NCBI GenBank assembly: GCA_038064375.1
Contig: JBBTTF010000001.1
Coordinates: 125,572-189,571 of the forward strand
Direction: 5' to 3'
DNA: 64,000 nt
Source: Patescibacteria group bacterium
Lineage (GTDB): Bacteria > Patescibacteriota > Saccharimonadia > Saccharimonadales > UBA4665
Positions 19,392 to 46,721 of this stretch are shown here, piece after piece (position 1 is the first letter of the stretch; each line of letters begins with the position of its first letter). The position numbers were made by a program, and so were the translations under genes. The notes beneath the pieces were generated by a model. The model was not told the origin of the DNA, did no database searches, and worked only from the letters and a program-made list of their open reading frames with translations.

Positions 19392-19852
19392 ACAGCTCAA
19401 TGGAAGAAGCAATCCAATACTCTAAGAAATACCTAGAAGATCTATTATCATTCTTTGGCCTAAACACTGACGTCTACGCAACTAGCGACGACGAAGTGAT
19501 CCAGCTAAGCGTCCCCAGCACACATCTCAATGGCTTTTTGATTGGTCAGCGCGGTGAGAACATGCGCTCATTGCAATATCTGACTAGCACAGCACTCAAG
19601 AACAATGATTACGAACACAATCGCATCAACGTCGACATCGCCGACTACAAGAAGCAGCGCGCCGAGCGCTTGCGTGAACGCGCTGAGGTCTGGGTTAAGC
19701 AAGTCCGTGACAGTGGTGAATCTATGGATGTAGAGCCCATGAACGCTGCCGACAGGCGCGTTGTTCACCAGCTTGCAGCTGAGTACGGTCTAACCAGCGA
19801 ATCTGCTGGTGAGGGTCGTGACCGACATATTGTGCTTAAGAAGGGTGACTAG
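19388..19852 (+). CDS. jag: Jag/KhpB-type RNA-binding protein (KH plus R3H domains)
   Basis: The KH-like segment is GFLIGQRGENMRSLQYL. The R3H segment is MNAADRRVVHQLAAEYGLTSESAGEGRDRHIVL. An ATGA overlap links it to yidC. Confidence 0.85.
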   Translation: MNSSMEEAIQYSKKYLEDLLSFFGLNTDVYATSDDEVIQLSVPSTHLNGFLIGQRGENMRSLQYLTSTALKNNDYEHNRINVDIADYKKQRAERLRERAEVWVKQVRDSGESMDVEPMNAADRRVVHQLAAEYGLTSESAGEGRDRHIVLKKGD

Positions 19853-21174
19853 CTAACGAGAACGGGTCGTCGGCCAATACTGTAATAGCTAAAACCAGCG
19901 GCCTGCATCTGCGCAGGCTGAAAAACGTTACGGCCGTCAAATACCAGTGGCTGCTCCAATGACTTAGCAACTATGCTCAGATCGCTATCACCAAACTCAG
20001 GCCACTCGGTGGCGATAAGCAAAGCCGTGGCACCAGACAAGGTGTCGTACTTATCATCAACTATCTTAACGCGGTCGTCACCTTCGTAGACGGCACGGAC
20101 ATTATCAGCAGCCTCCGGGTCGTAAGCGACAACCTTTGCCCCGGCCTCGAGTAGTCGATTAATAATCGTCAGGGCAGGCGCCTCGCGGATGTCATCGGTA
20201 TTGGGCTTGAAGGCTAGGCCCCACAGAGCAAAAGTCTTACCCGAAATGTTGCCATCAAAATGATCAAGTAGCTTGGTGACCAAAACTTCTTGCTGCTGGT
20301 CGTTGATAGCCATAGCAGCCGTTAGGAGCTTGAAGTCATAGTTGTGCTCCTCGGACATATGCTTGAGCGCACGCACGTCCTTAGGGAAGCAGCTGCCACC
20401 ACAACCAATACCTGGGTAAAGAAACTTTTCGCCAATGCGGCTATCGGCACCAATGGCTTGTCGCAACATGTCGACATCAGCGCCCATTCGCTCACTGAGC
20501 TGTGCCATTTCGTTCATAAAGCTGATCTTGGTTACCAAGAAGGTATTAGCAGCGTATTTAGTTAGTTCGGCGGTGCGGGGGTCGGTGACATAGAGAGGGC
20601 GTTCGTCATTGGTGAAAGAAGCATAGAGTTCGCGCATGACTGCCTCAGCCTCTTTGCTGCTAACGCCAACTACTACACGTTCTGGTTCCATAAAGTCAGC
20701 TATCGCGTGACCTTCCCGCAAGAACTCTGGGTTAGAGGCAACATCAAATGGACTAGTAGCTTTGGCAGCGATGGCTTCGTGTACGGCCTCAGCAGTGCCC
20801 ACGGGGACAGTGCTCTTGTCGATAACTACGCAATACTCAGAGGGTAGGCAGTCCCCCAAGGCTTCGGCGACTTTAAGTACAGCCGACAGATCGGCCGAAC
20901 CATCTTCCATCGGTGGTGTAGGCAATGCCAAGAAGATAGCTTTAGCATCAGCAATCCCTTCGGCGAGACTGGTTGTAAAGGTCAATCGACCTTGCTCGAT
21001 GGCGCGCGCCATGACCTCTTCTAGATTGGGCTCATAAATGGGAGAAACGCCCTGCTTGAGCTGCGCGACCTTAGCCTCGTTATTGTCGACACAAACAACA
21101 TTGTGCCCGCTATCCGCGAGACAACAACCAGTAACCAGTCCGACATAACCTGTCCCTACAATTGTCACATTCAT
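19849..21174 (-). CDS. ugd: UDP-glucose 6-dehydrogenase
   Basis: The Rossmann segment is MNVTIVGTGYVGLVTG. The catalytic-Cys segment is GCGGSCFPKDVRAL. The protein is 441 aa. Confidence 0.88.
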   Translation of the reverse strand: MNVTIVGTGYVGLVTGCCLADSGHNVVCVDNNEAKVAQLKQGVSPIYEPNLEEVMARAIEQGRLTFTTSLAEGIADAKAIFLALPTPPMEDGSADLSAVLKVAEALGDCLPSEYCVVIDKSTVPVGTAEAVHEAIAAKATSPFDVASNPEFLREGHAIADFMEPERVVVGVSSKEAEAVMRELYASFTNDERPLYVTDPRTAELTKYAANTFLVTKISFMNEMAQLSERMGADVDMLRQAIGADSRIGEKFLYPGIGCGGSCFPKDVRALKHMSEEHNYDFKLLTAAMAINDQQQEVLVTKLLDHFDGNISGKTFALWGLAFKPNTDDIREAPALTIINRLLEAGAKVVAYDPEAADNVRAVYEGDDRVKIVDDKYDTLSGATALLIATEWPEFGDSDLSIVAKSLEQPLVFDGRNVFQPAQMQAAGFSYYSIGRRPVLVS

Positions 21175-21209
21175 GAGGTTTTATTATACATGGCCCCGAG
21201 GCTAAAAGC

Positions 21210-22298
21210 TCAACCTGCTCGTTTGTAGACTTCGAGTGTTTGCGCGGCCGTACGCTGCCACGAGTATTCGGAGGCCTTGGCTTTGCCGTTGTTTATAAAG
21301 GTTTGCCGCAGCTCTTGGTTGGTCAGAACCTCGTTGATGGCGTGTGACATGGACTGAACGTCCAGAGGGTCAAAGTAGTGCGCAGCGTCACCATAGATCT
21401 CAGGCAGACAACTGGCGTTGCTACTGACTACTGGCGCGCCGTGCATCATGGCCTCTAATCCCGGCAGACCAAAACCTTCGCTCAAAGAAGGGAATACATA
21501 AGCTTGAGTCTGCTCATACAGCCAGCGCAACTGCCCTTCGCTGACAAAGTCGGTAAACACTACGTTTGCAATCCCGCGACTGGTGACCATTGCTTCGACA
21601 CGAGCGTAGTTGCTATCCTTCTTGCCTGCGAGCACTAGCACAAGATCAGGGTGCTGACCTTTGAGCAGAGCAAAGGCTTCTATCAAGCGCTCCAGATTCT
21701 TGTGGGGCATCGGGCGACCGACGTACATGATGAACGGCTTGCCTTCGAGCTCTGGCATAGTCTGTGCCGGTTCGATAATTGCGTCGGCCGCTTCAAGGGT
21801 CACAGTGATTTTATCCGGACTTACCCCGCTAAAATTAACCAAATCCTTTTTGGCAAACTGTGATCCTGTTATTATTGCCACGGATTTCTTAAGCACTCGT
21901 TTTATAACAAGCCGATAGATATGCTGCTTGAAGCGAAAGACGATCATGTTTTTGCTTGGATTATCGAAACGTAGAGCAGTCAGGTCGTGAACCGTAGACA
22001 CGACTCTGCCGCGGTACAAGATTGGCTGTTGCGCAAACGGAAAGTGCACCAGATCGGCTTGTTGACGCTTGATTAGACGCTTCAGCCCAAGCTGCTCCCC
22101 AAAGCTGAACTCCTTGTAAGGACAAATTATCTTGCTAAAACGATTATTGCTGGGCTGCCAGCCTTCGGCGTCTTGGGGCTTGAGCAGTACTCTATATTCG
22201 TTTTCATGGTCAATAAGTTGCAGATAGTGCAATAGTCTTTCAACATAACGACCGGAGCTGGTGCGAAGTTCGCGGGCGTCTATAACGATTCGTTTCAT
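21210..22298 (-). CDS. GT4-family glycosyltransferase (mannosyl/rhamnosyl-transferase-like)
   Basis: The start MKRIVIDARELRTSSGRYVERLL (ATG 22298) is typical of WbdC/MtfB-type enzymes. The E-x7-E region is PSLSEGFGLPGLEAMMHGAPVV. The 27-codon extension in the track ORF is unlikely to be translated. Confidence 0.8.
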   Translation of the reverse strand: MKRIVIDARELRTSSGRYVERLLHYLQLIDHENEYRVLLKPQDAEGWQPSNNRFSKIICPYKEFSFGEQLGLKRLIKRQQADLVHFPFAQQPILYRGRVVSTVHDLTALRFDNPSKNMIVFRFKQHIYRLVIKRVLKKSVAIITGSQFAKKDLVNFSGVSPDKITVTLEAADAIIEPAQTMPELEGKPFIMYVGRPMPHKNLERLIEAFALLKGQHPDLVLVLAGKKDSNYARVEAMVTSRGIANVVFTDFVSEGQLRWLYEQTQAYVFPSLSEGFGLPGLEAMMHGAPVVSSNASCLPEIYGDAAHYFDPLDVQSMSHAINEVLTNQELRQTFINNGKAKASEYSWQRTAAQTLEVYKRAG

Positions 22299-22407
22299 AG
22301 ACTTATAGTAACTTAGGCAAAATCTAAAAGTAAGAGGCAGACTTTGGCGCAGGCTAGATGTTATACTATTGCTTAGCAATAAAATCTAGACGGAGGCGAC
22401 GCGACTA

Positions 22408-23403
22408 ATGGCAAAGACTGCACTTATCACAGGCATTACTGGGCAAGATGGTTATCACTTGGCAGAACTATTGAACTCAAAAGGCTATGAAGTCTACGGC
22501 ATAATCCGCGGCCAACAAAACCCTAAGCGTCAGCGCGTTGAGCAAGAGCAGCCATACATCAAACTCATTGAGGCTGACCTTGTAGACCAGTCATCACTCG
22601 TCAACGCCATTCAGATATCTAAGCCTGACGAGGTGTACAACCTAGCCGCTATTAGCCACGTTGGATATTCTTTTAAGACGCCACAGCTAGTTGCTGATGT
22701 TACGGGCAAGGGTGTTCTTAACCTACTTGAAGCTATTCGTCAGACCGGCGGTGCTAAGACGATTCGCTTTTATCAAGCTTCAACTTCTGAGATGTTTGGT
22801 GGTCTGGACTACAACCGACCTGGCAAGGGCTATGACGAGGACGCCCTATTCCACCCAAGAAGCCCATATGGTGTAGCTAAGCTCTACGGACACTGGATTA
22901 CCAAGAACTATCGCGAGAGCTATGACATGCACGCTAGCTGTGGCATATTGTTCAACCACGAAGGCGAACGACGCGGCCTAGAGTTTGTAACTCGCAAGAT
23001 TAGTAATGCTGTTGCTCGCATTCACCTTGGTAAGCAAGACCACATTGAGCTCGGCAACCTCGAGCCTAAGCGAGACTGGGGCTACGCTGGTGACTACGTA
23101 GAAGGTATGTGGCGAATGCTGCAGCAAGACCAGCCTGATGACTTTGTCTTGGCAACTGGCGAGACGCACTCTATTGGTGAATTCTTGGAGCTGGCCTTTA
23201 AAGAAATCGGAATAGACGACTGGAAGCCTTACGTTAAAGAGAACCCTGCCTTTATGCGACCAGCAGAAGTCGACATCTTACTCGGCGACCCTTCAAAAGC
23301 CGAAAGAGTTCTTGGCTGGAAGCGCAAAGTCGACTTTGAAGGTCTTGTTAAGCTGATGGTCCAGAACGACATCGGCCTAGAATCAGCCGACACCCTTAAG
23401 TAG
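22408..23403 (+). CDS. gmd: GDP-mannose 4,6-dehydratase
   Basis: The N-terminus is ALITGITGQDGYHLAELLNSKGYEVYGIIRG. The YxxxK segment is SPYGVAKLYGHW. The protein is 331 aa. Confidence 0.92.
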   Translation: MAKTALITGITGQDGYHLAELLNSKGYEVYGIIRGQQNPKRQRVEQEQPYIKLIEADLVDQSSLVNAIQISKPDEVYNLAAISHVGYSFKTPQLVADVTGKGVLNLLEAIRQTGGAKTIRFYQASTSEMFGGLDYNRPGKGYDEDALFHPRSPYGVAKLYGHWITKNYRESYDMHASCGILFNHEGERRGLEFVTRKISNAVARIHLGKQDHIELGNLEPKRDWGYAGDYVEGMWRMLQQDQPDDFVLATGETHSIGEFLELAFKEIGIDDWKPYVKENPAFMRPAEVDILLGDPSKAERVLGWKRKVDFEGLVKLMVQNDIGLESADTLK

Positions 23404-23405
23404 TA

Positions 23406-24332
23406 CTAGCGAGAACGCCAGTCGGCAATAACGTCGGCCAGAGTAGTTTCTATATCAATTGCTGGTTGCCAGCCGGTATCCTGAGCTAGCTTGTCGTGAC
23501 TGCCGTATATCAACGGATTATCGGCAGGGCGCATCTTAGCTGGATCAGTCTTGATCTCAGGACTGGACTCAGTGGAGGCAAGCAGGCCTTTGAGAATGTC
23601 GTGGCCGCTGCGTGGTGTGCCAGAACAGATGTTATAGACTTGGCCGGCACGACCCTTTTGCAATAGCAGACGGTAGGCACGAACAATATCACGAACGTCG
23701 GTGTAGTCACGTTGAGCCTCGAGATTGCCTACCAGCACCTCTTGAGCATTGCCCTTCTCGACTTCAACAATCTGTTGAGCTAAGTCAGGAACAATAAAGC
23801 CAGGGCCTTGGCCGGGGCCAATGTGATTAAAAGGACGGGCGATTATCGAGTCAAAGCCACGCCCGTGATAGTAATGGGCCATTTGCTCTTGGCCGATCTT
23901 GCTGACGGAGTATGGTGAGCTTGGCTCGACAGGGGAGTCTTCGTTTAGAGGCAGAGACGCAGTTGCATCGTAGAGGCTGCCACTGCTGATAATCAAAAAG
24001 CGCGGTGATGCACCTTGAGACAAGGCGGCTTCAAACAAGTTAACCTCAATACCGACGTTTACAGACATGTAAAGCATCGGGTTATCAAAGGAGGCACCAA
24101 CGGCGGCTAGGCCAGCAAGGTGGATTACGCCATCTATGTCTGTGAAGTCTATTTGGGCGACCTGATCGGGCTTGGTTAGGTCGAGCTCCAGATAGGTCGC
24201 GACATAAGGTGATTTGTCCTTGGCTCCTTGTGGACCGCCAACACCAACGACGGCTATGCCGTGCTCGTGCAGTTCTTTAACTAGGTGTTGGCCGACAAAT
24301 CCGTTGGCTCCTGTGACTAAAATCTTTTTCAT
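23406..24332 (-). CDS. rmd: GDP-6-deoxy-D-lyxo-4-hexulose (GDP-4-keto-6-deoxy-D-mannose) reductase, Rmd-like
   Basis: MKKILVTGANGFVG, SPYSVSKIGQE, ARPFNHIGPGQ, VGNLEAQRDYTDVRDIVRAYRLL, AGQVYNICSG, DPAKMRPAD and TGWQPAIDIETTLADVIADWRSR track the P. aeruginosa Rmd sequence as I remember it. The gene is adjacent to gmd. Confidence 0.75.
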   Translation of the reverse strand: MKKILVTGANGFVGQHLVKELHEHGIAVVGVGGPQGAKDKSPYVATYLELDLTKPDQVAQIDFTDIDGVIHLAGLAAVGASFDNPMLYMSVNVGIEVNLFEAALSQGASPRFLIISSGSLYDATASLPLNEDSPVEPSSPYSVSKIGQEQMAHYYHGRGFDSIIARPFNHIGPGQGPGFIVPDLAQQIVEVEKGNAQEVLVGNLEAQRDYTDVRDIVRAYRLLLQKGRAGQVYNICSGTPRSGHDILKGLLASTESSPEIKTDPAKMRPADNPLIYGSHDKLAQDTGWQPAIDIETTLADVIADWRSR

Positions 24333-24415
24333 TATGAAGACCATTATATATGACTCTTCAAAACCAAGCCCAGATAAGTTGTAGTAAGGGGTTAATCAGG
24401 GTAAAATAGAGCATA

Positions 24416-25222
24416 ATGCACAACCTGACCCAGCGTTACCGCTACTCTATCATTTTGCTCAAGCAGCTTGTTAAAACTGATTTCAAGTTACGCTACCAAG
24501 GCTCTATTTTGGGCTATGCGTGGTCACTGCTCCGTCCACTGTTTCTGTTTATTATTCTTTACATTGTTTTTGCTAAATTCTTGAAAGTTGGCGGAAGTAT
24601 TCCACACTTTCCGGTGTACTTATTGCTTGGTATTGTGCTCTGGAACTACTTTGCTGAGGTGACTATGGGTGGGGTAAGTGCGATAGTCGGCAGAGGTGAT
24701 CTACTAAGAAAAATTAACTTCCCTAAGTATGTTTTGATCTTGGCTGGATCCTTTTCAGCGTTCATTAACTTGATACTAAACTTTATAGTAATTGCCTTAT
24801 TTATGGTTTTGACTGATGTCAGCATCTCGTGGAGCGCAATAATTATGATTCCGATAATTGCTGAGCTATTTATATTTTCTATAGCAATGGCCTTTTTCTT
24901 GAGCGCACTGTACGTTAAGTTCCGTGACGTGTCTTACATCTGGGAGGTTATTATGCAGGGCGCGTTCTACGCGACGCCAATTCTGTATCCCCTGAGTCTA
25001 ATACCGGTGGCCGCCGCCAAACTTTTGATCCTAAATCCTATGGCGCAGATCATACAGGACTCTAGATACGTGCTTGTAACTAAGGATACTGACACGATTC
25101 ATACGCTTTACGGTGGAAACAACTGGGTCTGGGCTATACCAATCGGCATTACCTTAGTGACAGCAGTATTGGCGGCATCCTATTTCCGATCACAGTCTAA
25201 GCATTTCGCGGAGGAAATTTAG
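24416..25222 (+). CDS. wzm: ABC-2 type polysaccharide export permease (Wzm/TagG-like)
   Basis: 268 aa with about 6 TM helices. The N-terminal motif is FKLRYQGSILGYAWSLLRPL. The gene lies 1 nt upstream of the ATPase gene. Confidence 0.88.
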   Translation: MHNLTQRYRYSIILLKQLVKTDFKLRYQGSILGYAWSLLRPLFLFIILYIVFAKFLKVGGSIPHFPVYLLLGIVLWNYFAEVTMGGVSAIVGRGDLLRKINFPKYVLILAGSFSAFINLILNFIVIALFMVLTDVSISWSAIIMIPIIAELFIFSIAMAFFLSALYVKFRDVSYIWEVIMQGAFYATPILYPLSLIPVAAAKLLILNPMAQIIQDSRYVLVTKDTDTIHTLYGGNNWVWAIPIGITLVTAVLAASYFRSQSKHFAEEI

Positions 25223-25223
25223 T

Positions 25224-39180: not shown

Positions 39181-40218
39181 ATGATATTAGTAATTATAGC
39201 CGGAGGGTCCGGATCGCGCCTCTGGCCGCTTTCTACACCCGAGTACCCTAAGCACTTGCTGAAGATTAATGGCGACTCGCGGTCGCTGTTACAGAAGACT
39301 TATGACCGTGCCCGCAGCCTGACCGACAAGATCTACATCGTCTCTGATAGCAGTCACATCCAGCACGTTAAAGAGCAGCTGTCAGAACTACCTGACGACG
39401 CCTTCATCGTCGAACCAGCCAGAAGAGGCACCGCTAACTGTATTGTCGCTGCCCTTGGCTACATCAGCAAAAAGCATGATAACGATGAGCCTATTGCCTC
39501 AATCCACGCCGACCACTACATCCGTGATCTAGAGGGCTTTAAGCATAGCTTTAAGATAGCCAATCAAATCTCCGAGCAAGAAGGTAAGATTGTTCTTGTT
39601 GGTATTGAGCCTGATCACCCAGCCACCGGCTTTGGTTATATTCAGAAGGGCGCACCTGCCGATGATTCCAGCCTTGTTTACGAAGTAAAGTCGTTCAAAG
39701 AGAAGCCTGACGCCGATGTAGCCCAAGAGTATTACACCAGCGGCAACTACTTATGGAACTCCGGCTTCTTTGTTGGCTCAGTCAATACATTCAAGCAAAA
39801 GATGGAAGCCTTTGCTCCCGATCTACTGGCTAACTACGACAAGCTTGTGTCTGCCCCCGACGACCAATACCAAGACACCTACCTCGGCCTAACCAGTGAA
39901 GCCATCGACTACGCACTAATAGAAAAGGTAGAGGATCTGCTAGTAGTCCCAGCCTCGTTTGACTGGATGGACCTAGGCTCGTTTAGCGATCTGCACAAGG
40001 CAGTTGGTGGCGATGAGCAAGGCAATCACACAGAAGGCAACGTCGAACTAGAAGCCGTCAGCAACTCCTTAGTCCACAACCAAGAGGACAAGCCAATCGC
40101 TGTCATTGGACTAGACAATGTGGTGGTCGTTAACACCCCACAAGGCCTACTAATCACCCGCAAAGATATGTCGCAAAAAGTCGGCGACGTTAGTAAACGA
40201 ATAGGAGAAAAATCTTGA
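39181..40218 (+). CDS. manC: mannose-1-phosphate guanylyltransferase
   Basis: The motifs are MILVIIAGGSGSRLWPLS and GFGYI. The protein is 345 aa and consists of the nucleotidyltransferase domain only. Confidence 0.88.
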   Translation: MILVIIAGGSGSRLWPLSTPEYPKHLLKINGDSRSLLQKTYDRARSLTDKIYIVSDSSHIQHVKEQLSELPDDAFIVEPARRGTANCIVAALGYISKKHDNDEPIASIHADHYIRDLEGFKHSFKIANQISEQEGKIVLVGIEPDHPATGFGYIQKGAPADDSSLVYEVKSFKEKPDADVAQEYYTSGNYLWNSGFFVGSVNTFKQKMEAFAPDLLANYDKLVSAPDDQYQDTYLGLTSEAIDYALIEKVEDLLVVPASFDWMDLGSFSDLHKAVGGDEQGNHTEGNVELEAVSNSLVHNQEDKPIAVIGLDNVVVVNTPQGLLITRKDMSQKVGDVSKRIGEKS

Positions 40219-40988
40219 AGAAACTAATCGCCTTTGATCTCGATGGAACCCTAGCCGACAGCAAATCTCCACCCGATGACCGCATGACCGAGCTACTCGC
40301 TCAGTTGCTGACTAAGTTTGAGGTCTGCGTGATTTCTGGAGGCAAGTTTGAGCAGTTTAAGAAGCAGCTTTTGAATGGCCTGCAAGCGACTCCAACCCAA
40401 CTAGAGAGCCTTCACCTAATGCCAACCTGCGGCACGCAGTATTATCGCTACGACATTGGCAAAGATGATTGGCACCAGATCTACGCCGAGAATCTAACTG
40501 AGCCCGAGAAGAAACAAATTGTTGACGCTCTCAACAAAGGTTTTGACCACTTTGGTATCAAAGAGAAGGAAACCTACGGCGAGATTATCGAAGACCGTGG
40601 CTCACAGATCACCTACTCGGTCCTAGGGCAGGATATTGTTGATGTTCTTGGCAAAGAAGGCGTTAAGCGCAAAGAAGAATGGGATCCCGACAACTCCAAG
40701 AAGCTGGCCGTTAGGGATTATGTAGCTGACCTGATACCTGACTTTGAAGTTCGTGCCGGCGGCGTCACATCTATCGACGTAACCAAGCAAGGCATCGACA
40801 AAGCCTACGGTATGCGTAAGCTAATGGAAATGCTCGAGATCGGCAAAGACGACATCTTGTTTGTCGGTGACCGCTTGCAAGAAGGCGGCAACGACTACCC
40901 AGTCAAAGCCTACGGCATCGACAGTCTAGAAATCTCTCGCTGGCAGGACACGGCGATTGCCGTTCAGGCTATTTTGCACGTGGCTTAA
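40215..40988 (+). CDS. HAD-IIB hydrolase, eukaryote-type phosphomannomutase-like
   Basis: The TTG start lies 7 nt after AGGAG and overlaps the manC stop (TTGA). The motifs are IAFDLDGTLADS, VISGGKFEQF and FVGDRLQEGGNDYPV, which compare with FFGDKTMPGGNDHEI in human PMM2 as I recall it. The protein is 257 aa. Confidence 0.6.
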   Translation: MKKLIAFDLDGTLADSKSPPDDRMTELLAQLLTKFEVCVISGGKFEQFKKQLLNGLQATPTQLESLHLMPTCGTQYYRYDIGKDDWHQIYAENLTEPEKKQIVDALNKGFDHFGIKEKETYGEIIEDRGSQITYSVLGQDIVDVLGKEGVKRKEEWDPDNSKKLAVRDYVADLIPDFEVRAGGVTSIDVTKQGIDKAYGMRKLMEMLEIGKDDILFVGDRLQEGGNDYPVKAYGIDSLEISRWQDTAIAVQAILHVA

Positions 40989-41003: not shown

Positions 41004-42830
41004 TTATTCGACAGTAACAGATTTAGCCAAGTTGCGAGGGCGGTCTACATCGTAACCGCGCTTCATAGCGATGTAGTAGGCGAATAGTTGAGTCACGATG
41101 GCTTGCAGTATGGGCTGAGTCTCAAGCGCTGTCGCAGGAATATAAATCACGTCGTCACAGAACTTGGCAATCTCGGTGTTGCCCTCTGTCGCGATAGCAA
41201 CAACTGGACCTTTGCGAGCGCGAACTTCTTGAATGTTTGAGTAAGTCTTCTCGAGTAGCGGTGAGTCAGTAGCAATAGCGAAGGTTGGGAAGTTCTCGTC
41301 GATCATGGCTAGCGGGCCGTGCTTCATCTCGCCAGCGGCATAGCCCTCAGCGTGCATGTAGGAGACTTCTTTGAGCTTTAGAGCACCCTCAAGAGCTGAC
41401 GGGAAGGCGTTGTGACGGCCGATGAATAGGAAGTCACGGTAATCAGCGTACTTCTCGGCGATTTTCTTGATGTCTTCGGCACTGTCTAGGACTGCTTGAG
41501 CCTTTGCTGGCAACTCCGACAGCTCCTCTAGGATTGGCTTAAAGCGTTTGCTCTTGCCATTGTTGAGGTGAAGTGCGATCTCAGCAAGTACAGTAACTTG
41601 GGCGATAAAGGCCTTGGTGCTGGCGACGGCGCGCTCAGGACCAGCGTGACAGTAGACACCAGCGTCAGTCATACGGGCAATCGTGCTACCTACGGAGTTA
41701 ACAATACCCAGTCTCAGGACACCGTAGTCTTCTACTTTCTTGAGTGCTGCAATCGTGTCGGCTGTTTCGCCAGATTGAGATATGGCAATAAGTGCCGTGC
41801 TACGTGAGAAAGGTTCGCTACGGTACTTAAACTCGCTAGCCAAGTGGACTTCGACAGGGATGCCAGCTAGTTCCTCGATCAAGTATTCGCCAACTAGGCC
41901 GGCGTAATAGGATGTGCCGCAGGCGACGATAACGATACGGTCGATGTACTTGAGCTGACCTAGGACGTTTTCTAGTCCACCGAGCTTGACGATGTTCTGA
42001 TCGGGGAGGGCGCGACCTAGAGTGGCAGAGCGAATGGTGATCGGCGCCTCAAAGATCTCTTTGAGCATAAAGTTGGGGTAATCACCAAGGACGGCCTCAA
42101 CGTTGTCATAGTCCAGAAGTTCGGCCTCTGGCGTCTCACGTTGTTTATCCTTGAGGTTGTGAATAACGACGTTGTCCTTGGTGATGACTGCGATGTCGTA
42201 ATCTTCTAGGTAGATGACCTTTTTGGTGTGTTCCATGATGGCTGAGCTGTCAGAAGCTAAAATGTTCTCGCCCTTGCCAACACCAACTACCAATGGGCTT
42301 GAGAGGCGCGCTGCGTACAGTGTGTCGGGCTCTAGGGCATAAATGGCAGCAATGGCGTAGGCGCCGCGGACATCGCCCAGAGCAGTCGCAAAGGCCTCCT
42401 CAAAAGAAGGCAACTGCTTGAGATAATAATCGATCAGGTTAGGCATGACCTCAGTGTCGGTCTCGGAGATGAACTTGTAGCCTTCTTTTTGCAGCTTGTC
42501 ACGGAGCTCGGCGAAGTTCTCGATAATACCGTTGTGAACCACCGAAATGGTTTGTGCCTCGTTAGTTTGCGGGTGTGCATTGATGCTAGTTGGTGATCCG
42601 TGAGTTGCCCAACGAGTGTGGCCAATTACCAGGTTAGAATCGGCCTTTTGAGCCTCAACAGTCTTAACTAGACCACTGACGCGACCAGCTTGCTTAATAA
42701 CTTGGTTCTTGCCGTTCTCGCAGAGGGCAATACCGGCGGAGTCATAGCCACGGTACTCTAAAGCCTCGAGACCTTGTAAAACAACGTCTGCACCAGATTT
42801 GTTACCGATATAACCGACGATTCCGCACAT
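41004..42830 (-). CDS. glmS: glutamine--fructose-6-phosphate aminotransferase
   Basis: The start MCGIVGYIG is followed by two SIS domains, and the protein ends in VTVE. It is 608 aa. Confidence 0.96.
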   Translation of the reverse strand: MCGIVGYIGNKSGADVVLQGLEALEYRGYDSAGIALCENGKNQVIKQAGRVSGLVKTVEAQKADSNLVIGHTRWATHGSPTSINAHPQTNEAQTISVVHNGIIENFAELRDKLQKEGYKFISETDTEVMPNLIDYYLKQLPSFEEAFATALGDVRGAYAIAAIYALEPDTLYAARLSSPLVVGVGKGENILASDSSAIMEHTKKVIYLEDYDIAVITKDNVVIHNLKDKQRETPEAELLDYDNVEAVLGDYPNFMLKEIFEAPITIRSATLGRALPDQNIVKLGGLENVLGQLKYIDRIVIVACGTSYYAGLVGEYLIEELAGIPVEVHLASEFKYRSEPFSRSTALIAISQSGETADTIAALKKVEDYGVLRLGIVNSVGSTIARMTDAGVYCHAGPERAVASTKAFIAQVTVLAEIALHLNNGKSKRFKPILEELSELPAKAQAVLDSAEDIKKIAEKYADYRDFLFIGRHNAFPSALEGALKLKEVSYMHAEGYAAGEMKHGPLAMIDENFPTFAIATDSPLLEKTYSNIQEVRARKGPVVAIATEGNTEIAKFCDDVIYIPATALETQPILQAIVTQLFAYYIAMKRGYDVDRPRNLAKSVTVE

Positions 42831-42831
42831 T

Positions 42832-43941
42832 CTAGCTATTTGACCTTTCTGATGTACATTCTTTGATATAGTTTAGCATATTTTGCTTAAATGTCAATAC
42901 TGAGAACTGTTTGGCGTGCTCTGAAATGGCGTCGTAATTGAAGGATTTGGTCGTTGCTACCTCAAGAACTGAGGTCAAAGCTTTGACAGTTTGCTTCTCA
43001 AAGAACAATCCAGTCTTGCCCTCGATGACGTAATCCAAAGCACCACCTTTATTATAGGCTATAACAGGAGTGCTGGCAGCCATTGCCTCGATCGCCACAA
43101 TGCCAAAATCGTCCATATTAGGCATGATAAAGCCGAGTGCCGACTGAAAATGATCAACAATCTCACTGTCATTAACGTTGGTCAAGAAGGTGGTGCCACG
43201 ACCAGCCATCTTTTCGAGGCGTTTGTGATCCGGTCCGTCGCCGATAACTATCAAAGGCACACTAAGCTTGTCACAGGCCTCAATCGCCAGATCAAACCGC
43301 TTGTACGGCGTCTGACGGCCAGCTACAACGAAGCCGTGCCTTAGTGGAGCCTTGTTGCTCGGCTTAAAGCGGTCAATCTCAACCGGCGGGAAGATAACAG
43401 TCGAATCGCGCTTATAGAAGCGCTTAATCATGGCTTGGGTGTGAGTTGAATTGGCAATAATGTAATCCGGTTGCTTGGCGGCATGGCGGTCCCAGCGCTT
43501 AAGCGGGCCAACGAGCAGCTTGAGGCCGAGTCTGGCTAGCCAGTTGAGCCCTCTCGGGAAGCCAGGATTCTCCAGATATTCGTCGTGTCTGATCCAATAA
43601 TAGTGAGTTGGAGAGTGACAATAACAGATATGAGTGGTGTTTTTGCCGGTTTTGACGCCTTTGGCTTCGGCGCCGCTGGAGGATATTACCAAATCGTACT
43701 CGCTGAGGTCGAGGCGGCTAAAAGTCCATGCTCTGAGCATTGGCAGGAACTTTTTGAGACTGGTTGGCAGCTTTTGCAGCCACGAGGTGCGGATATCGGC
43801 ATCCTCAAACCAGCTAAGCTTGCTGGGGTCGTATTGAGAGGTGTAGATTGGGGCGTCTGGATACATTTTGTGAAGCTCCAGAACTACTCGCTCGGCCCCG
43901 CCGATGCCTGTTAGCCAATCGCAAACTATGGCGACTTTCAT
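42832..43941 (-). CDS. GT4-family glycosyltransferase
   Basis: The ATG at 43941 (MKVAIVCDWLTGIGGAERVV) forms an ATGA overlap with the stop of the upstream sugar transferase. Another motif is NMDDFGIVAIEAMAASTPVIA. The 11-codon extension in the track ORF is unlikely to be translated. Confidence 0.8.
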   Translation of the reverse strand: MKVAIVCDWLTGIGGAERVVLELHKMYPDAPIYTSQYDPSKLSWFEDADIRTSWLQKLPTSLKKFLPMLRAWTFSRLDLSEYDLVISSSGAEAKGVKTGKNTTHICYCHSPTHYYWIRHDEYLENPGFPRGLNWLARLGLKLLVGPLKRWDRHAAKQPDYIIANSTHTQAMIKRFYKRDSTVIFPPVEIDRFKPSNKAPLRHGFVVAGRQTPYKRFDLAIEACDKLSVPLIVIGDGPDHKRLEKMAGRGTTFLTNVNDSEIVDHFQSALGFIMPNMDDFGIVAIEAMAASTPVIAYNKGGALDYVIEGKTGLFFEKQTVKALTSVLEVATTKSFNYDAISEHAKQFSVLTFKQNMLNYIKECTSERSNS

Positions 43942-45380
43942 CCGCGCGTACCCTTGTGGAATAGCACAACCCAAAACGTCTTAATCAAGATCACCATATC
44001 GCCCCAGAAGCTCCAGTTTTGAACATAATATAGGTCGAGTTTGCGGCGCTCCGAAAAGCTGAGGTCACTGACACCAGATATTTGGGCTAAGCCTGTCAGG
44101 CCGGATTTGACGCTTAGGATCAGGTTCTTTTGGTCGTACTTGTCTAGCTCGTAGGCTACCAAGGCACGTGGACCAACAAGACTAATATCGCCGCGGACGA
44201 CGTTGATTAACTGGGGTAGTTCGTCAATCGAAGTTCTGCGCAAGAATCGACCGATACGGGTTGTGCGCGGGTCGTTGTCTAGACGGTCGCCATTTTTGCG
44301 GTATTCGTCCACTAGTTCTGGCCGACCCATTTTGACAAAGGCTTCCTCAGGCTGCATGCCGCTGTACTTAGGGTTGTGTGAGCGGAACTTAAAGATCTTG
44401 ACGCGAGTATTAAAGCGGCTTAACCGTTCCTGTCGGAAGAATATTGGCCCGCCATCGGACAGCTTAACGGCGATTGCCGCCACTAACATGATTGGCGAGG
44501 CCGCAATCAGCATAATTGTACCCAAGAACAGATCACTCAGACGTTTAACAACACGTCCCCAACCGATCAAAGCGGTCTGGTGAACGGCAATAATCGGTAC
44601 GGCGTGGAAGAGGTCGACCTCGATTTTGCCAACAAACAGTTCGCTATTGCCCGGCACAAAGCGGTAGGCGGAGTGGTTCTCTTGGGCGTAGGTTAGGATT
44701 TCGTCGTTCTTGTCGTTGTCGGCGTAGAGTTCGGTCTGAATGATGGTGTGTAGCGGCTGGCCATGCTTGTGGGCTATAGCGTCTGTAAAGCTTTTGTACT
44801 GGTGGTAAGGCGCTTCTTCCTTAAAGGGGTTCTTAACCCCGCCAACAACACCTAAAATCTTGTAGCCCGTTATCCGTGTATTAATCAGGGCGTCAATAAG
44901 GCGCTGAGTAGTCTTGGTGTCACCAACTAGCAGAACGTTATTAATACCAAAACCATAGCTAAACAATCTTCGACGTATGCCGCGGGCTATGGTGCGGAAA
45001 ATGAGCACGCAGAAGAAAGCCAAGGCAAAGCCGTAAACAGTCACTAGACGAGCAGGGAATATAGCCGTATCGGTAAAGTAGCTGTAGCTGATAACAAACA
45101 GAATGCCGATGAATGTTCCAATCAACAGTCTGCCAAATTCGGCGAAGCGCTTTTCGTAGATCCGTAGATTATAAAGGCCGAGCAGACCGAAGATAAAAAT
45201 CCAAAACGGCAACAGGCTAACAAGGATGGTCAGGTAGGTGTGTGCACGGACGTCGGCACTCAATGGTTGGTGGCTAAGACTGACTCGCAGCAGATAGGCA
45301 ATACTAAAAGCAACGATAATCGCCAAGGCGTCACCAATTATCAGACAAACGTTATAGATGAGCGAAGCGTTGTTTTTCAT
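43938..45380 (-). CDS. polyprenyl-phosphate glycosyl-1-phosphate transferase (WbaP/CpsE/WsaP-type initiating enzyme)
   Basis: Four or five N-terminal TM helices are followed by a C-terminal bacterial sugar-transferase domain: DGGPIFFRQERLS, SIDELPQLINVVRGDISLVGPRA, GLTGLAQISG. The protein is 480 aa. Confidence 0.88.
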   Translation of the reverse strand: MKNNASLIYNVCLIIGDALAIIVAFSIAYLLRVSLSHQPLSADVRAHTYLTILVSLLPFWIFIFGLLGLYNLRIYEKRFAEFGRLLIGTFIGILFVISYSYFTDTAIFPARLVTVYGFALAFFCVLIFRTIARGIRRRLFSYGFGINNVLLVGDTKTTQRLIDALINTRITGYKILGVVGGVKNPFKEEAPYHQYKSFTDAIAHKHGQPLHTIIQTELYADNDKNDEILTYAQENHSAYRFVPGNSELFVGKIEVDLFHAVPIIAVHQTALIGWGRVVKRLSDLFLGTIMLIAASPIMLVAAIAVKLSDGGPIFFRQERLSRFNTRVKIFKFRSHNPKYSGMQPEEAFVKMGRPELVDEYRKNGDRLDNDPRTTRIGRFLRRTSIDELPQLINVVRGDISLVGPRALVAYELDKYDQKNLILSVKSGLTGLAQISGVSDLSFSERRKLDLYYVQNWSFWGDMVILIKTFWVVLFHKGTRG

Positions 45381-45407
45381 GGGTAAGCTATAATAAATTG
45401 TAACATT

Positions 45408-46721
45408 ATGAAAGTATCGGCACTGAAGTACACGGTTCTGTCGTGGGCAAGTGGACTAACCATGGCCATCTTGTTGTTGACGCCCTTCCACGCTCTCCTT
45501 ACTGTTTGGGGCTCTAGTCTGATTGGTCACTATACGGCGCTTCGCCTCTGGAAAGAGAGTCTTTTGGCGCTTTGTATCATCGGTGTTGTCTATCTAATAG
45601 CCACCGATCACAAGATACGAAGTCACACCATGTCACGGCGACTTGTCTGGCTGATCTTGGTCTACATGTTGCTCAATGTTGTATGGGGTCTTTTGGCTCT
45701 AAATGAGCACAATATAACCGCCAAAGCCATGGGCTACGGGCTTATTATCAATCTAAGATTTTTGGCTTTCTTCTTGGTAACATGGGCGATTGCGCTGCGA
45801 CTGGGGCGATTGCGTGGTAACTGGTGGCGCTTAGCGCTGTGGCCGGCTGCTGGCGTTGTTGGCTTTGGGCTACTGCAGATTATTGTTTTGCCGCATGACT
45901 TTTTGCGACATTTTGGCTACAGTGTGGCCACGATTGAGCCGTTTGAGACGATTAACAATAACCTCAACTACGTACGAATTTCGTCTACGCTGCGAGGTGC
46001 AAATCCACTCGGCGCCTATCTGTTAATTCCAATCAGCTTGTTGACCGTGGGGTTACTGCGAACGGGGCGGAACTGGCGTCAAGCTGCCTTTTTGGCTTCA
46101 GCTTTACTGGTGCTCTTCTTTAGCTTTTCGCGTAGTGCGTGGATCGGTGCAGCCTTGAGCATTGCGGTTGTCGCCTTTTATAGCCTAAAAACTGCGCGCG
46201 CCAAGCAGTATGCCATCATTACTGTCAGTTGTTTGATGTTCTTTGGAGTGGGTTTGTACGCTGGCCTACGACACAATACGCATTTTGAGAACTTTGTATT
46301 CCATACCCAGACCAACTCTACTGTTAAGGTAAGCTCTAATGACGGACATATATCAGCGCTTAGAAACGGGTTGAGCGACATCAAGCACGAACCGCTCGGC
46401 TCTGCACCGGGAACGGCGGGGCCAGCTAGTGTCTACAATGATGGCAAGACACGCATAGCCGAGAACTACTTTATCCAAATTGGGCAGGAGACTGGTCTCT
46501 TGGGGTTGCTAATGTTTGTGATGATTAACGCCGGTGTTGGCTATCTTTTGTGGTCTCGTCGAGCTGATCCTTTGGCACTTGGTTTGTTTGCTAGCTTGAT
46601 CGGGCTGACATTTATCAATCTGTTATCGCATGCTTGGACTGACGATACCTTGGCTTATGTTTGGTGGGGTCTGGCCGGTATTGCCATGGTTATGCCTAAC
46701 AAGATTAAGAAAGATTTCTAA
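45408..46721 (+). CDS. O-antigen ligase/polymerase-family membrane protein (Wzy_C-type)
   Basis: 437 aa with about 11 TM helices. The motifs are LVLFFSFSRSAWIGAALSIAVV and a downstream loop with HISALRNGL...GPASVYNDG, as in WaaL/O-OTase-type proteins. Confidence 0.7.
   Translation: MKVSALKYTVLSWASGLTMAILLLTPFHALLTVWGSSLIGHYTALRLWKESLLALCIIGVVYLIATDHKIRSHTMSRRLVWLILVYMLLNVVWGLLALNEHNITAKAMGYGLIINLRFLAFFLVTWAIALRLGRLRGNWWRLALWPAAGVVGFGLLQIIVLPHDFLRHFGYSVATIEPFETINNNLNYVRISSTLRGANPLGAYLLIPISLLTVGLLRTGRNWRQAAFLASALLVLFFSFSRSAWIGAALSIAVVAFYSLKTARAKQYAIITVSCLMFFGVGLYAGLRHNTHFENFVFHTQTNSTVKVSSNDGHISALRNGLSDIKHEPLGSAPGTAGPASVYNDGKTRIAENYFIQIGQETGLLGLLMFVMINAGVGYLLWSRRADPLALGLFASLIGLTFINLLSHAWTDDTLAYVWWGLAGIAMVMPNKIKKDF

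What the first reader, a model, noticed from the sequence alone, without database searches (positions are those of the whole stretch)
19849..46721. 27-kb surface-glycan locus built around a complete GDP-D-rhamnose pathway and a Wzm/Wzt exporter
manC, a PMM-like HAD protein, gmd and an Rmd-like reductase together give mannose-6-P -> GDP-mannose -> GDP-4-keto-6-deoxymannose -> GDP-D-rhamnose. D-rhamnose is a rare sugar, best known from the P. aeruginosa common polysaccharide antigen, whose locus also combines rmd, gmd, wzm, wzt and GT4 rhamnosyltransferases.

This locus adds:
- ugd (UDP-glucuronate)
- glmS
- at least 7 GTs
- 2 methyltransferases
- a WbaP-type initiating transferase
- an O-antigen-ligase-like protein

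No LPS-core, Lpt or outer-membrane genes are visible. The nearest functional analogy I know of in monoderms is the S-layer glycan (slg) cluster of Geobacillus stearothermophilus. That cluster encodes a methyl-capped rhamnan, Wzm/Wzt, the WbaP homologue WsaP and the ligase-like O-oligosaccharyltransferase WsaB.
Basis: partly seen in the sequence, partly recalled or inferred. Interest (0 to 1): 0.6.

Follow-up and report, generated by a model that had tools for sequence, protein, structure and literature searches.

The report
D-rhamnose surface-glycan locus in Saccharibacteria
A tiny, outer-membrane-less Saccharibacterium devotes 3% of its genome, right beside its replication origin, to an assembly line of known enzyme types for a capped surface sugar polymer that probably contains the rare sugar D-rhamnose; what the polymer is attached to is unknown.

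Summary
All 23 genes lie at the stated coordinates and have the stated family assignments.

**Organism.** It is a Saccharimonadales (Patescibacteria/CPR) bacterium with a 0.90-Mb, 98%-complete genome. The genome has no LpxC.

**Rmd.** The Rmd-like reductase's two best solved-structure matches are the two verified GDP-D-rhamnose reductases (E 3e-55 and 5e-55; next hit 4e-33). A tree and an AU test (p 0.004) reject grouping it with GDP-fucose synthase.

**Precursor caveats.**
- The 'PMM-like' HAD protein is closest to the Lactococcus alpha-phosphoglucomutase PgmH.
- The only PMI candidate is a small cupin outside the locus.

**New here.**
- The whole locus fills a conserved slot between jag and a lexA-like gene in six relatives. 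The left end (GT4-gmd-rmd-wzm-wzt) and right end (manC...GT4-PHPT-ligase-like) are conserved. The middle is variable and low in GC.
- The PHPT/ligase-like pair and Wzm are far more widespread in the lineage than Rmd.
- The locus PHPT is the genome's only glycopolymer initiator. No Wzx or TagO/WecA was found.

**Open question.** The final acceptor could be a protein or lipid via the WaaL-fold protein, or peptidoglycan via two distal LCP enzymes.

**Verdict.** New member of a known kind, of moderate interest.

The parts
19849..21174 (-). ugd, UDP-glucose 6-dehydrogenase (UDP-glucuronate supply)
   Evidence: PF03721, PF00984 and PF03720 all match. TIGR03026 scores 457 bits, above its 190 cut-off. 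Its position next to jag is unique to this genome. In relatives G006 and G010, ugd sits before manC.
21210..22379 (-). GT4a, the conserved left-end GT4 glycosyltransferase (candidate rhamnosyltransferase)
   Evidence: Glycos_transf_1 at 4.8e-36. 58-70% identical and syntenic in 14 or more Saccharimonadales loci.
22408..23403 (+). gmd, GDP-mannose 4,6-dehydratase
   Evidence: PF16363 at 4e-124. TIGR01472 scores 391 bits, just under its 415 cut-off. 48% identical to E. coli Gmd. The STSE and YxxxK motifs are kept.
23406..24344 (-). [quoted passage not shown]
   Evidence: Best PDB hits are 2pk3 (3e-55) and 6x3b (5e-55); the next hit is 4e-33. 38% identical to each solved Rmd. It carries the Rmd-type 'RPFNHIGPGQ' motif, and Gmd's catalytic Glu is replaced by Ser. 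Trees.
24416..25222 (+). wzm, ABC-2 permease of the glycan exporter
   Evidence: PF01061 matches. A homologue is present in 52 of 61 families of the order.
25224..26423 (+). wzt, exporter ATPase with a C-terminal carbohydrate-binding domain
   Evidence: ABC_tran plus Wzt_C at 7e-22. PDB 8dku and 7k2t (Aquifex Wzt, full length) at 5e-72, aligned over residues 44-380.
26430..27608 (+). GT4b glycosyltransferase (variable region)
   Evidence: Only 32-45% identical in relatives.
27605..28669 (+). FkbM-family methyltransferase (candidate chain-end capping enzyme)
   Evidence: PF05050 at 4e-27. TIGR01444 is above its cut-off. The start overlaps the upstream gene by 4 nt.
28666..30429 (+). GT4c, 587-aa GT4 glycosyltransferase with extra domains
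   Evidence: Glycos_transf_1 at 1e-18.
30422..31636 (+). GT4d glycosyltransferase
   Evidence: Weak Glyco_transf_4 and Glyco_trans_1_4 matches.
31633..32973 (+). GT4e glycosyltransferase
   Evidence: Glycos_transf_1 at 4e-16.
32970..34883 (-). 637-aa polytopic membrane protein (candidate GT-C-type outer-face glycosyltransferase)
   Evidence: No Pfam, NCBIfam or PDB match. About 12 or more hydrophobic segments. The role is inferred only from its neighbours.
34962..35657 (+). class I SAM methyltransferase
   Evidence: Methyltransf_23 at 2e-16.
35654..36391 (+). GT2, polyprenyl-phosphate sugar synthase-like
   Evidence: PF00535 at 3e-34. Best NCBIfam matches are AglJ, PpgS and dolichyl-P hexose transferase.
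36388..36813 (+). GtrA-family small membrane protein
   Evidence: PF04138 at 2e-14.
36830..38527 (-). secreted 565-aa protein: conserved N-domain plus two Ig-like repeats
   Evidence: No family or PDB sequence match. Homologues lie inside the locus in all six relatives. The fold search finds only Ig-like beta-sandwich matches.
38527..39078 (-). membrane-anchored Gmad2 Ig-like protein
   Evidence: PF10648 at 1e-6. It is paired with the 565-aa protein in G005 and G006.
39181..40218 (+). manC, mannose-1-phosphate guanylyltransferase (no PMI domain)
   Evidence: PF00483 plus ManC beta-helix. 35% identical to residues 9-355 of E. coli CpsB.
40215..40988 (+). HAD-IIB phosphohexomutase (PMM and/or alpha-PGM)
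   Evidence: Best PDB hit is 4bnd, L. lactis alpha-phosphoglucomutase, at 9e-48. PMMs score 1e-10 or weaker. Its start overlaps the end of manC by 4 nt. The only other phosphohexomutase in the genome is GlmM.
41004..42830 (-). glmS
   Evidence: TIGR01135 scores 762 bits.
42832..43974 (-). GT4f, conserved GT4 next to the initiator (candidate adaptor transferase)
   Evidence: 72-88% identical in family relatives and 45-54% in order-level relatives that lack Rmd.
43938..45380 (-). PHPT, polyprenyl-phosphate hexose-1-phosphate transferase (initiator)
   Evidence: Bac_transf at 4e-56. TIGR03025 scores 351, above its 296 cut-off. It is the only glycopolymer initiator in the genome apart from MraY.
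45408..46721 (+). WaaL-fold, Wzy_C-family ligase-like protein
   Evidence: PF04932 scores 42 bits. The AF2 model has pLDDT 86, and its best fold match is WaaL 7tpg at E 1e-5 with TM 0.57/0.61. Present, nearly always as one copy, in 121 of 151 genomes of the class.

Best explanation
The locus is a single ABC-transporter-dependent assembly line for a cell-surface heteroglycan in a monoderm Saccharimonadales bacterium.

**Precursor supply**
- ManC, probably with the HAD-IIB mutase, makes GDP-mannose. This step is inferred.
- Gmd dehydrates GDP-mannose, and the Rmd-like SDR reduces the 4-keto intermediate. The product is most likely GDP-D-rhamnose.
- Ugd supplies UDP-glucuronate and GlmS supplies hexosamine.

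**Assembly**
- The large PHPT starts the chain on undecaprenyl phosphate at the cytoplasmic face.
- The conserved GT4f probably adds an adaptor sugar.
- GT4a and the variable GT4 enzymes extend the chain.
- A methyltransferase (FkbM type) probably caps the non-reducing end.

**Export and decoration**
- The carbohydrate-binding C-domain of Wzt recognises the finished chain, and Wzm/Wzt exports it.
- Outside the membrane, the GT2/GtrA/polytopic-protein trio may add side-chain sugars.

**Final transfer**
- The WaaL-fold protein encoded back-to-back with the PHPT transfers the glycan from the lipid carrier to a non-LPS acceptor (protein or lipid).
- The two LCP enzymes encoded elsewhere may do this as well or instead, attaching it to peptidoglycan.

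**Shown versus inferred**
- Shown: gene content, family and fold assignments, synteny and genome-wide absences.
- Inferred: the sugar's identity, the order of steps, capping and the acceptor.
For: **Families and fold.** Family assignments. The Rmd-like protein's two best solved relatives are the two verified Rmds. It shares Rmd motifs and lacks Gmd's catalytic Glu. Trees and the AU test exclude an Fcl/epimerase affinity.

**Only route to a 6-deoxyhexose.** Gmd and Rmd-like are the only extended SDRs found in the 98%-complete genome. No RmlB, RmlC, RmlD or Fcl was detected.

**Exporter.** Wzt carries Wzt_C and matches full-length Aquifex Wzt. No Wzx-type flippase (PF01943) is in the genome.

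**One initiator.** There is one PHPT and one PNPT, and the PNPT is MraY. The locus PHPT must therefore initiate whatever Wzm/Wzt exports.

**Operon structure.** wzm through GT4e form a seven-gene run with gaps of at most 6 nt or overlapping stop/start codons.

**Synteny.** Six relatives share the jag...lexA-like slot, both conserved ends and a variable middle.

**PHPT and ligase-like pairing.**
- The two genes lie within 1.9 kb of each other in 23 of 33 same-order genomes that hold both.
- The ligase-like gene stays 61-70% identical while the glycosyltransferase set changes. That is how a ligase behaves, not a repeat-unit polymerase.
- The fold is WaaL-like, and Arg190, Arg242 and near-invariant His299 are conserved.

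**Composition.** GC dips to 0.41-0.44 in the middle, against 0.48 for the genome.
Against: - No biochemical or compositional data exist for any Saccharibacterium.
- Product stereochemistry (D-rhamnose versus 6-deoxy-D-talose) cannot be read from sequence. The sister relation to P. aeruginosa Rmd is weak: SH-aLRT 85 in the quick tree and unresolved in the careful tree.
- The HAD-IIB enzyme is closest to a phosphoglucomutase, not a PMM.
- PMI rests on a 146-aa cupin with a 41-bit PF01050 match.
- No acceptor was identified.
- Two LCP genes exist. With only one initiator in the genome they may well be the real ligases.
- Wzy_C also covers polymerases.
- The order-wide PHPT/GT4/ligase module occurs without Rmd. 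The D-rhamnose part may therefore be an add-on rather than the core.
Confidence: 0.68

Rival explanations
1. The polymer is a peptidoglycan-anchored wall polysaccharide, a functional stand-in for teichoic acid like streptococcal rhamnose-rich wall polysaccharides or pneumococcal capsule. After export, the two LCP phosphotransferases attach it to the cell wall. The Wzy_C protein has another or a secondary role.
For: - Two LCP proteins clear the Pfam cut-off.
- The genome has no TagO/WecA and only this one PHPT. The LCPs therefore have no other evident lipid-linked polymer substrate.
- LCP attachment of PHPT-initiated capsule to peptidoglycan is established in pneumococci (own knowledge).
- One LCP gene sits next to a GT2 gene.
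Against: - Neither LCP gene is in or near the locus in this genome, and none was seen among the window-protein homologues mapped in the six relatives' loci.
- The WaaL-fold gene is back-to-back with the initiator in 23 of 33 same-order genomes.
- A conserved, nearly always single-copy ligase-like gene would be left without a job.
Confidence: 0.3
2. The interval holds two separable systems that merely share a chromosomal slot. One is an ancient PHPT-GT4-Wzy_C module that makes and polymerises or ligates a short conserved glycan. The other is a later-acquired Gmd/Rmd/Wzm/Wzt rhamnan module.
For: - The right-end module occurs order-wide in genomes without Rmd. In G041 it sits next to dTDP-L-rhamnose genes instead.
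- Rmd is in only 20 of 151 genomes in the class sample and 17 of 61 in the order sample, whereas PHPT is in 134 of 151.
- In Southlakia epibionticum a Wzy/WaaL-like gene sits with a Wzx flippase in an EPS cluster that affects fitness (PMC10633639).
Against: - This genome has no Wzx and no second initiator. Each half lacks a step that only the other half supplies.
- Wzm is itself order-wide, in 52 of 61 families, so the exporter is not a recent add-on.
- Most same-order genomes that keep the PHPT/Wzy_C pair also lack PF01943.
Confidence: 0.15
3. The SDR next to gmd is not an Rmd. It is a GDP-6-deoxy-D-talose synthase or another 4-keto reductase, so the polymer contains a different 6-deoxyhexose.
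For: - It is only 38% identical to each verified Rmd.
- Its placement within the Gmd/Rmd group is unresolved in the careful tree.
- No talose-synthase reference sequence was available for comparison.
Against: - The two best solved matches are both verified Rmds, about 70 bits ahead of the next hit.
- Rmd-type motifs are shared.
Confidence: 0.12

Closest known systems
S-layer glycan (slg) clusters of Gram-positive bacilli: Geobacillus stearothermophilus NRS 2004/3a (WsaP, Wzm/Wzt, WsaE, WsaB) and Aneurinibacillus thermoaerophilus L420-91T (D-rhamnose-containing glycan)
   Same: - Monoderm host.
- PHPT initiator rather than WecA.
- Wzm/Wzt export.
- Methyltransferase present for capping.
- A Wzy_C/WaaL-like protein serves as the last-step transferase.
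- The A. thermoaerophilus Rmd (2pk3) is one of the two best solved matches to the reductase here (PMC9415975).
   Different: - No S-layer protein or any other acceptor was identified.
- Different phylum (CPR), with a 0.9-Mb genome.
- The locus also carries ugd, glmS and a Gtr-like decoration trio.
- Two LCP ligases offer another endpoint.
- The details of the Geobacillus cluster come from my own knowledge and were not compared by sequence.
Pseudomonas aeruginosa common polysaccharide antigen (CPA) locus and similar Gram-negative D-rhamnan O-antigen clusters, e.g. Yersinia enterocolitica O:10 (PMC11380512)
   Same: - gmd + rmd + manC + wzm + wzt + GT4 transferases + a SAM methyltransferase.
- The reductase falls with P. 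aeruginosa Rmd 6x3b in the quick tree.
- Like CPA, it is a lineage-conserved locus.
   Different: - There is no lipid A-core acceptor here (no LpxC).
- The initiator is a PHPT, not WecA/WbpL.
- ManC lacks the PMI domain.
- The middle of the locus is hypervariable.
Streptococcal/lactococcal rhamnose-rich cell-wall polysaccharides (Rgp/Gac)
   Same: - ABC-transporter export of a deoxyhexose polymer in a monoderm.
- A GT2 + small membrane protein + polytopic-protein route for side-chain decoration.
- LCP enzymes present in the genome.
   Different: - Those systems use dTDP-L-rhamnose and a TagO/WecA-type initiator (GacO/RgpG), and they lack a WaaL-like gene.
- This genome has no Rml genes and no TagO.
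EPS cluster SEML1_0079-0083 of the cultivated Saccharibacterium Southlakia epibionticum (PMC10633639)
   Same: - Same phylum.
- PHPT + GT4 + a WaaL/Wzy-like membrane protein + GT2.
- Transposon data show a growth defect or essentiality.
   Different: - That cluster has a small PHPT and a Wzx flippase, and all its genes are on one strand.
- No gmd, rmd, wzm or wzt is among the genes SEML1_0079-0083 shown.
- Orthology with the genes here was not tested.

Membership tests
GDP-D-rhamnose pathway (ManC, Gmd, Rmd) | A GDP-mannose 4,6-dehydratase with the Thr/Glu/Tyr/Lys catalytic set | tested here: met
   PF16363 scores 415 bits. 48% identical to E. coli Gmd. The STSE and YxxxK motifs are present.
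GDP-D-rhamnose pathway (ManC, Gmd, Rmd) | A reductase closer to verified Rmd enzymes than to Fcl, RmlD or GalE | tested here: met
   2pk3 at 3e-55 and 6x3b at 5e-55, against 4e-33 for the next hit. The Fcl/RfbB clade excludes it at 97/96 support. AU p is 0.004.
GDP-D-rhamnose pathway (ManC, Gmd, Rmd) | The product is GDP-D-rhamnose, not its 4-epimer GDP-6-deoxy-D-talose | not testable with these tools
   This needs an enzyme assay with NMR or HPLC. No talose-synthase reference sequence was to hand.
GDP-D-rhamnose pathway (ManC, Gmd, Rmd) | Supply of mannose-1-phosphate (PMI and PMM) | tested here: inconclusive
   The HAD-IIB protein's best match is L. lactis alpha-PGM. The only alpha-phosphohexomutase is GlmM. 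There is no type-I PMI, but a 146-aa PF01050 cupin lies at genome C1:97708-98145.
ABC-transporter-dependent (Wzm/Wzt) glycan pathway with end-cap recognition | An ABC-2 permease plus an ATPase carrying a Wzt_C carbohydrate-binding domain | tested here: met
   PF01061, PF00005 and PF14524 match. Full-length match to Aquifex Wzt.
ABC-transporter-dependent (Wzm/Wzt) glycan pathway with end-cap recognition | No Wzx flippase or Wzy polymerase is needed | tested here: inconclusive
   PF01943 is absent from the genome. The Wzy_C protein is present, but it is conserved across loci with different GT sets, which fits a ligase rather than a polymerase.
ABC-transporter-dependent (Wzm/Wzt) glycan pathway with end-cap recognition | A chain-terminating modification enzyme | tested here: inconclusive
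   An FkbM methyltransferase lies in the wzm-wzt operon, one gene (GT4b) downstream of wzt. Its activity and target were not tested.
WaaL / O-antigen ligase (Wzy_C) family | Wzy_C domain and WaaL-type 10-12-helix fold with conserved Arg/Arg/His | tested here: met
   PF04932 scores 42.3, above its 31.7 cut-off. Fold match to 7tpg at E 1e-5, TM 0.57/0.61. R190 and R242 are invariant and H299 is at least 90% conserved in 24 homologues.
WaaL / O-antigen ligase (Wzy_C) family | The acceptor is lipid A-core | tested here: not met
   No LpxC in a 98%-complete genome, with positive controls. It is therefore not an LPS ligase, and the acceptor must be something else.
Gram-positive S-layer glycosylation (slg) cluster | PHPT initiator + Wzm/Wzt + ligase-like O-oligosaccharyltransferase in one locus | tested here: met
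Gram-positive S-layer glycosylation (slg) cluster | A glycosylated S-layer (or other) protein acceptor | not testable with these tools
   No S-layer gene was recognised. The secreted 565-aa protein in the locus is only a speculative candidate.
Rhamnose-rich wall polysaccharide (Rgp/Gac type) | TagO/WecA-type initiator and the dTDP-L-rhamnose pathway | tested here: not met
   MraY is the only PNPT. No RmlB, RmlC or RmlD was found.
Rhamnose-rich wall polysaccharide (Rgp/Gac type) | LCP-family ligase for attachment to peptidoglycan | tested here: met
   Two PF03816 proteins are in the genome, but both lie outside the locus.

The most novel reading that the evidence does not exclude
Saccharimonadales have no lipid A, yet they keep a lineage-wide, nearly always single-copy pair of a PHPT and a WaaL-fold protein, together with a Wzm/Wzt exporter. 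Under this reading the pair is a general O-linked protein-glycosylation system that decorates pili or other surface proteins. The hypervariable, origin-adjacent middle of the locus gives each lineage a different 'serotype', with a D-rhamnose-based one in this family. That glycan coat would govern recognition between the epibiont and its host bacterium, or by phages.
Probability: 0.25. Interest if true: 0.75.

Novelty: new member of a known kind. Interest (0 to 1): 0.45.

Why it matters
**Why the cell surface matters here.** Saccharibacteria are obligate epibionts, so their surface is the interface with their bacterial hosts. A recent paper calls their own glycosylation 'unexplored' (10.1101/2024.11.25.624915). 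This organism spends 3% of a 0.9-Mb genome on the locus. The exporter, initiator and ligase-like genes are kept across most of the order.

**A starting point for experiments.**
- The results define a conserved slot (jag...lexA-like) with a variable centre.
- They name the single initiator.
- They reduce the acceptor question to two enzyme candidates, the WaaL-like protein and the LCPs.
- All of these can be tested in the tractable cultivated relatives.

**A correction to the literature.** Patescibacterial gmd/rmd genes have been assumed to feed 'outer-membrane LPS' (PMC12911398). This genome has no LpxC.

Tried and rejected
- **Sequence searches of PDB.** The ligase-like protein, the 637-aa polytopic protein and the 565-aa secreted protein gave nothing.
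- **Fold search of the 565-aa protein.** The model has pLDDT 72. The search returned only generic Ig-like beta-sandwich hits from its C-terminal repeats and nothing for the conserved N-domain.
- **A GlmS paralogue.** I suspected a bifunctional PGI/PMI, but its sequence reads as a PurF-type amidotransferase, so I dropped it.
- **Type-I PMI.** Not found.
- **Literature.**
  - The King et al. 2009 GMD/RMD structure paper was not held, so Rmd-specific residues were read from my own alignment.
  - I found no held text giving PgmH substrate specificity. My recollection that it is glucose-specific is unverified.
- **The in-situ 42%-identical SDR of locus L016.** It could not be translated cleanly at the tblastn coordinates, and its extended frame exceeded the length filter. 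It was left out of the trees.
- **Wzy polymerase reading.** I considered that the Wzy_C protein is a Wzy polymerase and judged it unlikely (about 10%). The reasons are no Wzx, an ABC exporter with an end-recognition domain, and sequence conservation across loci with different transferase sets.
- **Horizontally acquired island.** I considered this for the whole locus and rejected it. Both ends are syntenic across the family. Only the middle looks exchanged, from its GC dip and low identity.

Full report
**What is there.**

The interval 19849-46721 holds 23 intact ORFs in at least eight transcription units.

- ugd, a conserved GT4 (GT4a), gmd and a convergent extended SDR.
- wzm and wzt, the latter with a Wzt_C domain.
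- A tightly packed run after wzt of GT4b, an FkbM methyltransferase, GT4c, GT4d and GT4e. Together with wzm and wzt this makes a seven-gene run.
- A convergent 637-aa polytopic protein with no family match.
- A class I methyltransferase, a GT2 and GtrA.
- A secreted 565-aa protein with an Ig-like anchor protein.
- manC overlapping a HAD-IIB gene.
- glmS, GT4f and a large PHPT.
- A Wzy_C protein, divergent from the PHPT and 27 nt away.

The flanks are dnaN, dnaA, yidC and jag on one side and a LexA-like gene on the other. GC falls to 0.41-0.44 across 24-38 kb, against 0.476 for the main contig of the genome.

**Organism.**

- Close homologues of the SDR (63-74% identity) come almost only from Saccharibacteria/Saccharimonadales MAGs.
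- The window's own genome is 902 kb in six contigs, 98% complete.
- LpxC is absent while the control genomes are positive. The 'no LPS' premise therefore holds genome-wide.

**Is the reductase an Rmd?**

- Its two best solved-structure matches are the verified Rmds of Aneurinibacillus thermoaerophilus (2pk3, 3e-55) and Pseudomonas aeruginosa (6x3b, 5e-55). The next hit is 4e-33, and no GDP-fucose synthase appears among the 60 matches listed.
- It is 38% identical to each Rmd, 27% to its own Gmd and 23% to E. coli Fcl.
- It keeps YxxxK and shares the Rmd-type RPFNHIGPGQ block.
- It has Ser where Gmd has its catalytic Glu, as P. aeruginosa Rmd has Asp.
- In an 80-sequence tree it forms a fully supported clade with 14 Saccharimonadales orthologues. 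That clade is sister to P. aeruginosa Rmd (SH-aLRT 85) inside a Gmd/Rmd group.
- In a careful 36-sequence tree, Fcl, RfbB and the other SDRs form a 97/96 clade that excludes it. Its position relative to the two Rmds is unresolved there.
- Forcing it together with Fcl is rejected (AU p 0.004).
- The product could still be the 4-epimer, 6-deoxy-D-talose. Sequence cannot settle that.
- tblastn with E. coli RfbB, RfbC, RfbD, Fcl and Gmd finds only these two SDRs in the genome. This is the organism's only route to a 6-deoxyhexose.

**Is the pathway complete?** Only partly shown.

- ManC has the guanylyltransferase part but no PMI domain.
- The HAD-IIB protein matches L. lactis alpha-phosphoglucomutase at 9e-48, and eukaryotic PMMs only around 1e-10.
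- The one alpha-phosphohexomutase in the genome scores as GlmM above its cut-off.
- The HAD protein is thus the best PMM candidate, and its start overlaps the end of manC by 4 nt. Its specificity remains open.
- No type-I PMI exists.
- A 146-aa cupin with a 41-bit PF01050 match lies about 27 kb upstream of the window.
- A GalU-like gene elsewhere could feed Ugd.

**One pathway, ABC-dependent.**

- Wzt aligns over residues 44-380 with the full-length Aquifex O-antigen Wzt, including its carbohydrate-binding domain.
- PF01943 (Wzx-type flippase) is absent from the genome.
- phmmer with E. coli WecA and MraY finds a single PNPT, MraY.
- E. coli WcaJ finds only the locus PHPT.
- The PHPT is therefore the only initiator available for the polymer that Wzm/Wzt exports.

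**Comparative anatomy (new).**

In six relatives the whole locus lies between jag and the lexA-like gene.

- The left end GT4a-gmd-rmd-wzm-wzt is conserved at 54-93% identity. G003 is the exception: it has no wzm/wzt at this end, only a distant pair (27-38%) in the middle.
- The right end manC-(HAD)-glmS-GT4f-PHPT-ligase-like is conserved at 61-92% identity, apart from manC at 48-49% in G004 and G006.
- The middle is variable, with GT4, FkbM, GT2 and secreted-protein genes at 24-55% identity.
- Some relatives add an Fcl-like gene.

*Class-wide sample (151 genomes)*

| Gene | Genomes with a match |
|---|---|
| Rmd-like | 20 |
| Ligase-like | 121, nearly always one copy |
| PHPT | 134 |
| PF01943, above cut-off | 64 |

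Most same-order genomes listed have no PF01943 match.

- PHPT and the ligase-like gene are within 1.9 kb of each other in 23 of 33 same-order genomes that hold both (coordinates).
- The arrangement GT4-PHPT / ligase-like-lexA also occurs in genomes without Rmd.
- In one of those genomes it sits beside an RmlC-RmlD fusion and an RmlB-like gene.

*Order sample (61 genomes, one per family)*

- Wzm is in 52 of 61 genomes.
- Rmd-like is in 17 of 61, usually next to wzm.

The exporter, initiator and ligase-like genes are therefore an order-wide trait. The D-rhamnose branch is one of several deoxyhexose options.

**The ligase-like protein.**

- An AF2 model (pLDDT 86, pTM 0.87) matches WaaL (7tpg) best, at E 1e-5 and TM 0.57/0.61. 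FtsW comes next.
- R190, S241-R242 and a Gly-rich loop are invariant in 24 homologues, and H299 is nearly invariant.
- It stays 61-70% identical while the transferase set changes. That argues for a ligase rather than a repeat-unit polymerase.
- Without lipid A, its acceptor must be a protein or another lipid.

**The main uncertainty.**

- Two LCP proteins are encoded elsewhere. One is beside a GT2 gene.
- With one initiator in the genome, they may act on this same polymer and fix it to peptidoglycan.
- I rate WaaL-like transfer to a protein or lipid acceptor at about 50% and LCP attachment at about 30%. The two are not exclusive.

**Literature.**

- No held paper links Saccharibacteria with an O-antigen ligase.
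- A pili study calls their glycosylation unexplored and predicts O-glycosylated pilins.
- In Southlakia epibionticum, transposon hits in a WaaL/Wzy-like gene, a GT2 and a Wzx of an EPS cluster cause growth defects or lethality.
- Groundwater Patescibacteria phages carry gmd and rmd, which the authors interpreted as LPS-related.
- D-rhamnan clusters with wzm, wzt and a methyltransferase are well known in Gram-negatives.
- A. thermoaerophilus is a Gram-positive with verified GDP-D-rhamnose enzymes.

**Verdict.**

This is a new member of a known kind of system. It gains value from its lineage-wide conservation in an understudied group.

Noticed in passing
window 36830-39078 (-); homologues in L001, L050, L052, L053, L055, L057, L059, L064: The secreted 565-aa protein has homologues inside the locus of all six relatives. 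Its N-domain (about aa 40-265) is conserved, with invariant K126-E127 in 'LQKEQSL'. The C-terminal Ig-like repeats vary from one to four copies. In two homologues (L001, L053) they are replaced by 'DGNLVLY' repeats reminiscent of bulb-type mannose-binding lectins. It looks like an enzyme or adhesin with carbohydrate-binding modules.
   Followed up: partly
own genome C1:97708-98145 (-), about 27 kb upstream of the window: A stand-alone 146-aa cupin matches the C-terminal mannose-6-phosphate isomerase domain (PF01050, 41 bits). It is the only PMI candidate in the genome.
   Followed up: partly
L062 (G041) 1267-3688: In a same-order genome without Rmd, the GT4-PHPT/ligase-like module lies next to an RmlC-RmlD fusion protein (544 aa) and an RmlB-like dehydratase. 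Different Saccharimonadales lineages appear to pair the same module with L-rhamnose instead of D-rhamnose.
   Followed up: partly
relatives G003 (rel. coords 22284-23216) and G006 (22931-23827): The variable middle of two relatives' loci holds an SDR that clusters with E. coli GDP-L-fucose synthase (100/100 support). Those genomes may make both GDP-D-rhamnose and GDP-L-fucose from the same Gmd product.
   Followed up: partly
L002 (labelled Dormiibacterota), L013 (labelled Verrucomicrobiia): L013 carries the Saccharimonadales dnaN-dnaA-yidC-jag-GT4-gmd-rmd-wzm-wzt arrangement at 52-89% protein identity. The 5-kb L002 carries wzm-rmd-gmd at 71-87%. Both contigs are probably mis-binned Saccharibacteria contigs.
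   Followed up: no
own genome C1:644464-646029 (-) and C4:33322-35190 (+): Two large LCP (LytR-CpsA-Psr) proteins have long disordered N-termini. The first is flanked by a GT2 gene and a 516-aa protein without family matches. An ABC-2 exporter pair lies about 4 kb away.
   Followed up: partly
window 19849-21174: ugd is wedged between jag and GT4a only in this genome. In relatives G006 and G010 it sits before manC, next to another SDR. This shows gene shuffling within the locus.
   Followed up: partly
L062 10379-12031 (-): A large serine recombinase gene lies just beyond the lexA-like boundary gene in relative G041. This hints at a mobile element inserted at the edge of the glycan slot.
   Followed up: no
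class-wide sample: One family (f17) lacks both the PHPT and the ligase-like gene in every sampled genome that the tables list. Three genera of family f2 keep the PHPT but have no ligase-like match. These may be lineage-specific losses, possibly in host-adapted clades.
   Followed up: no
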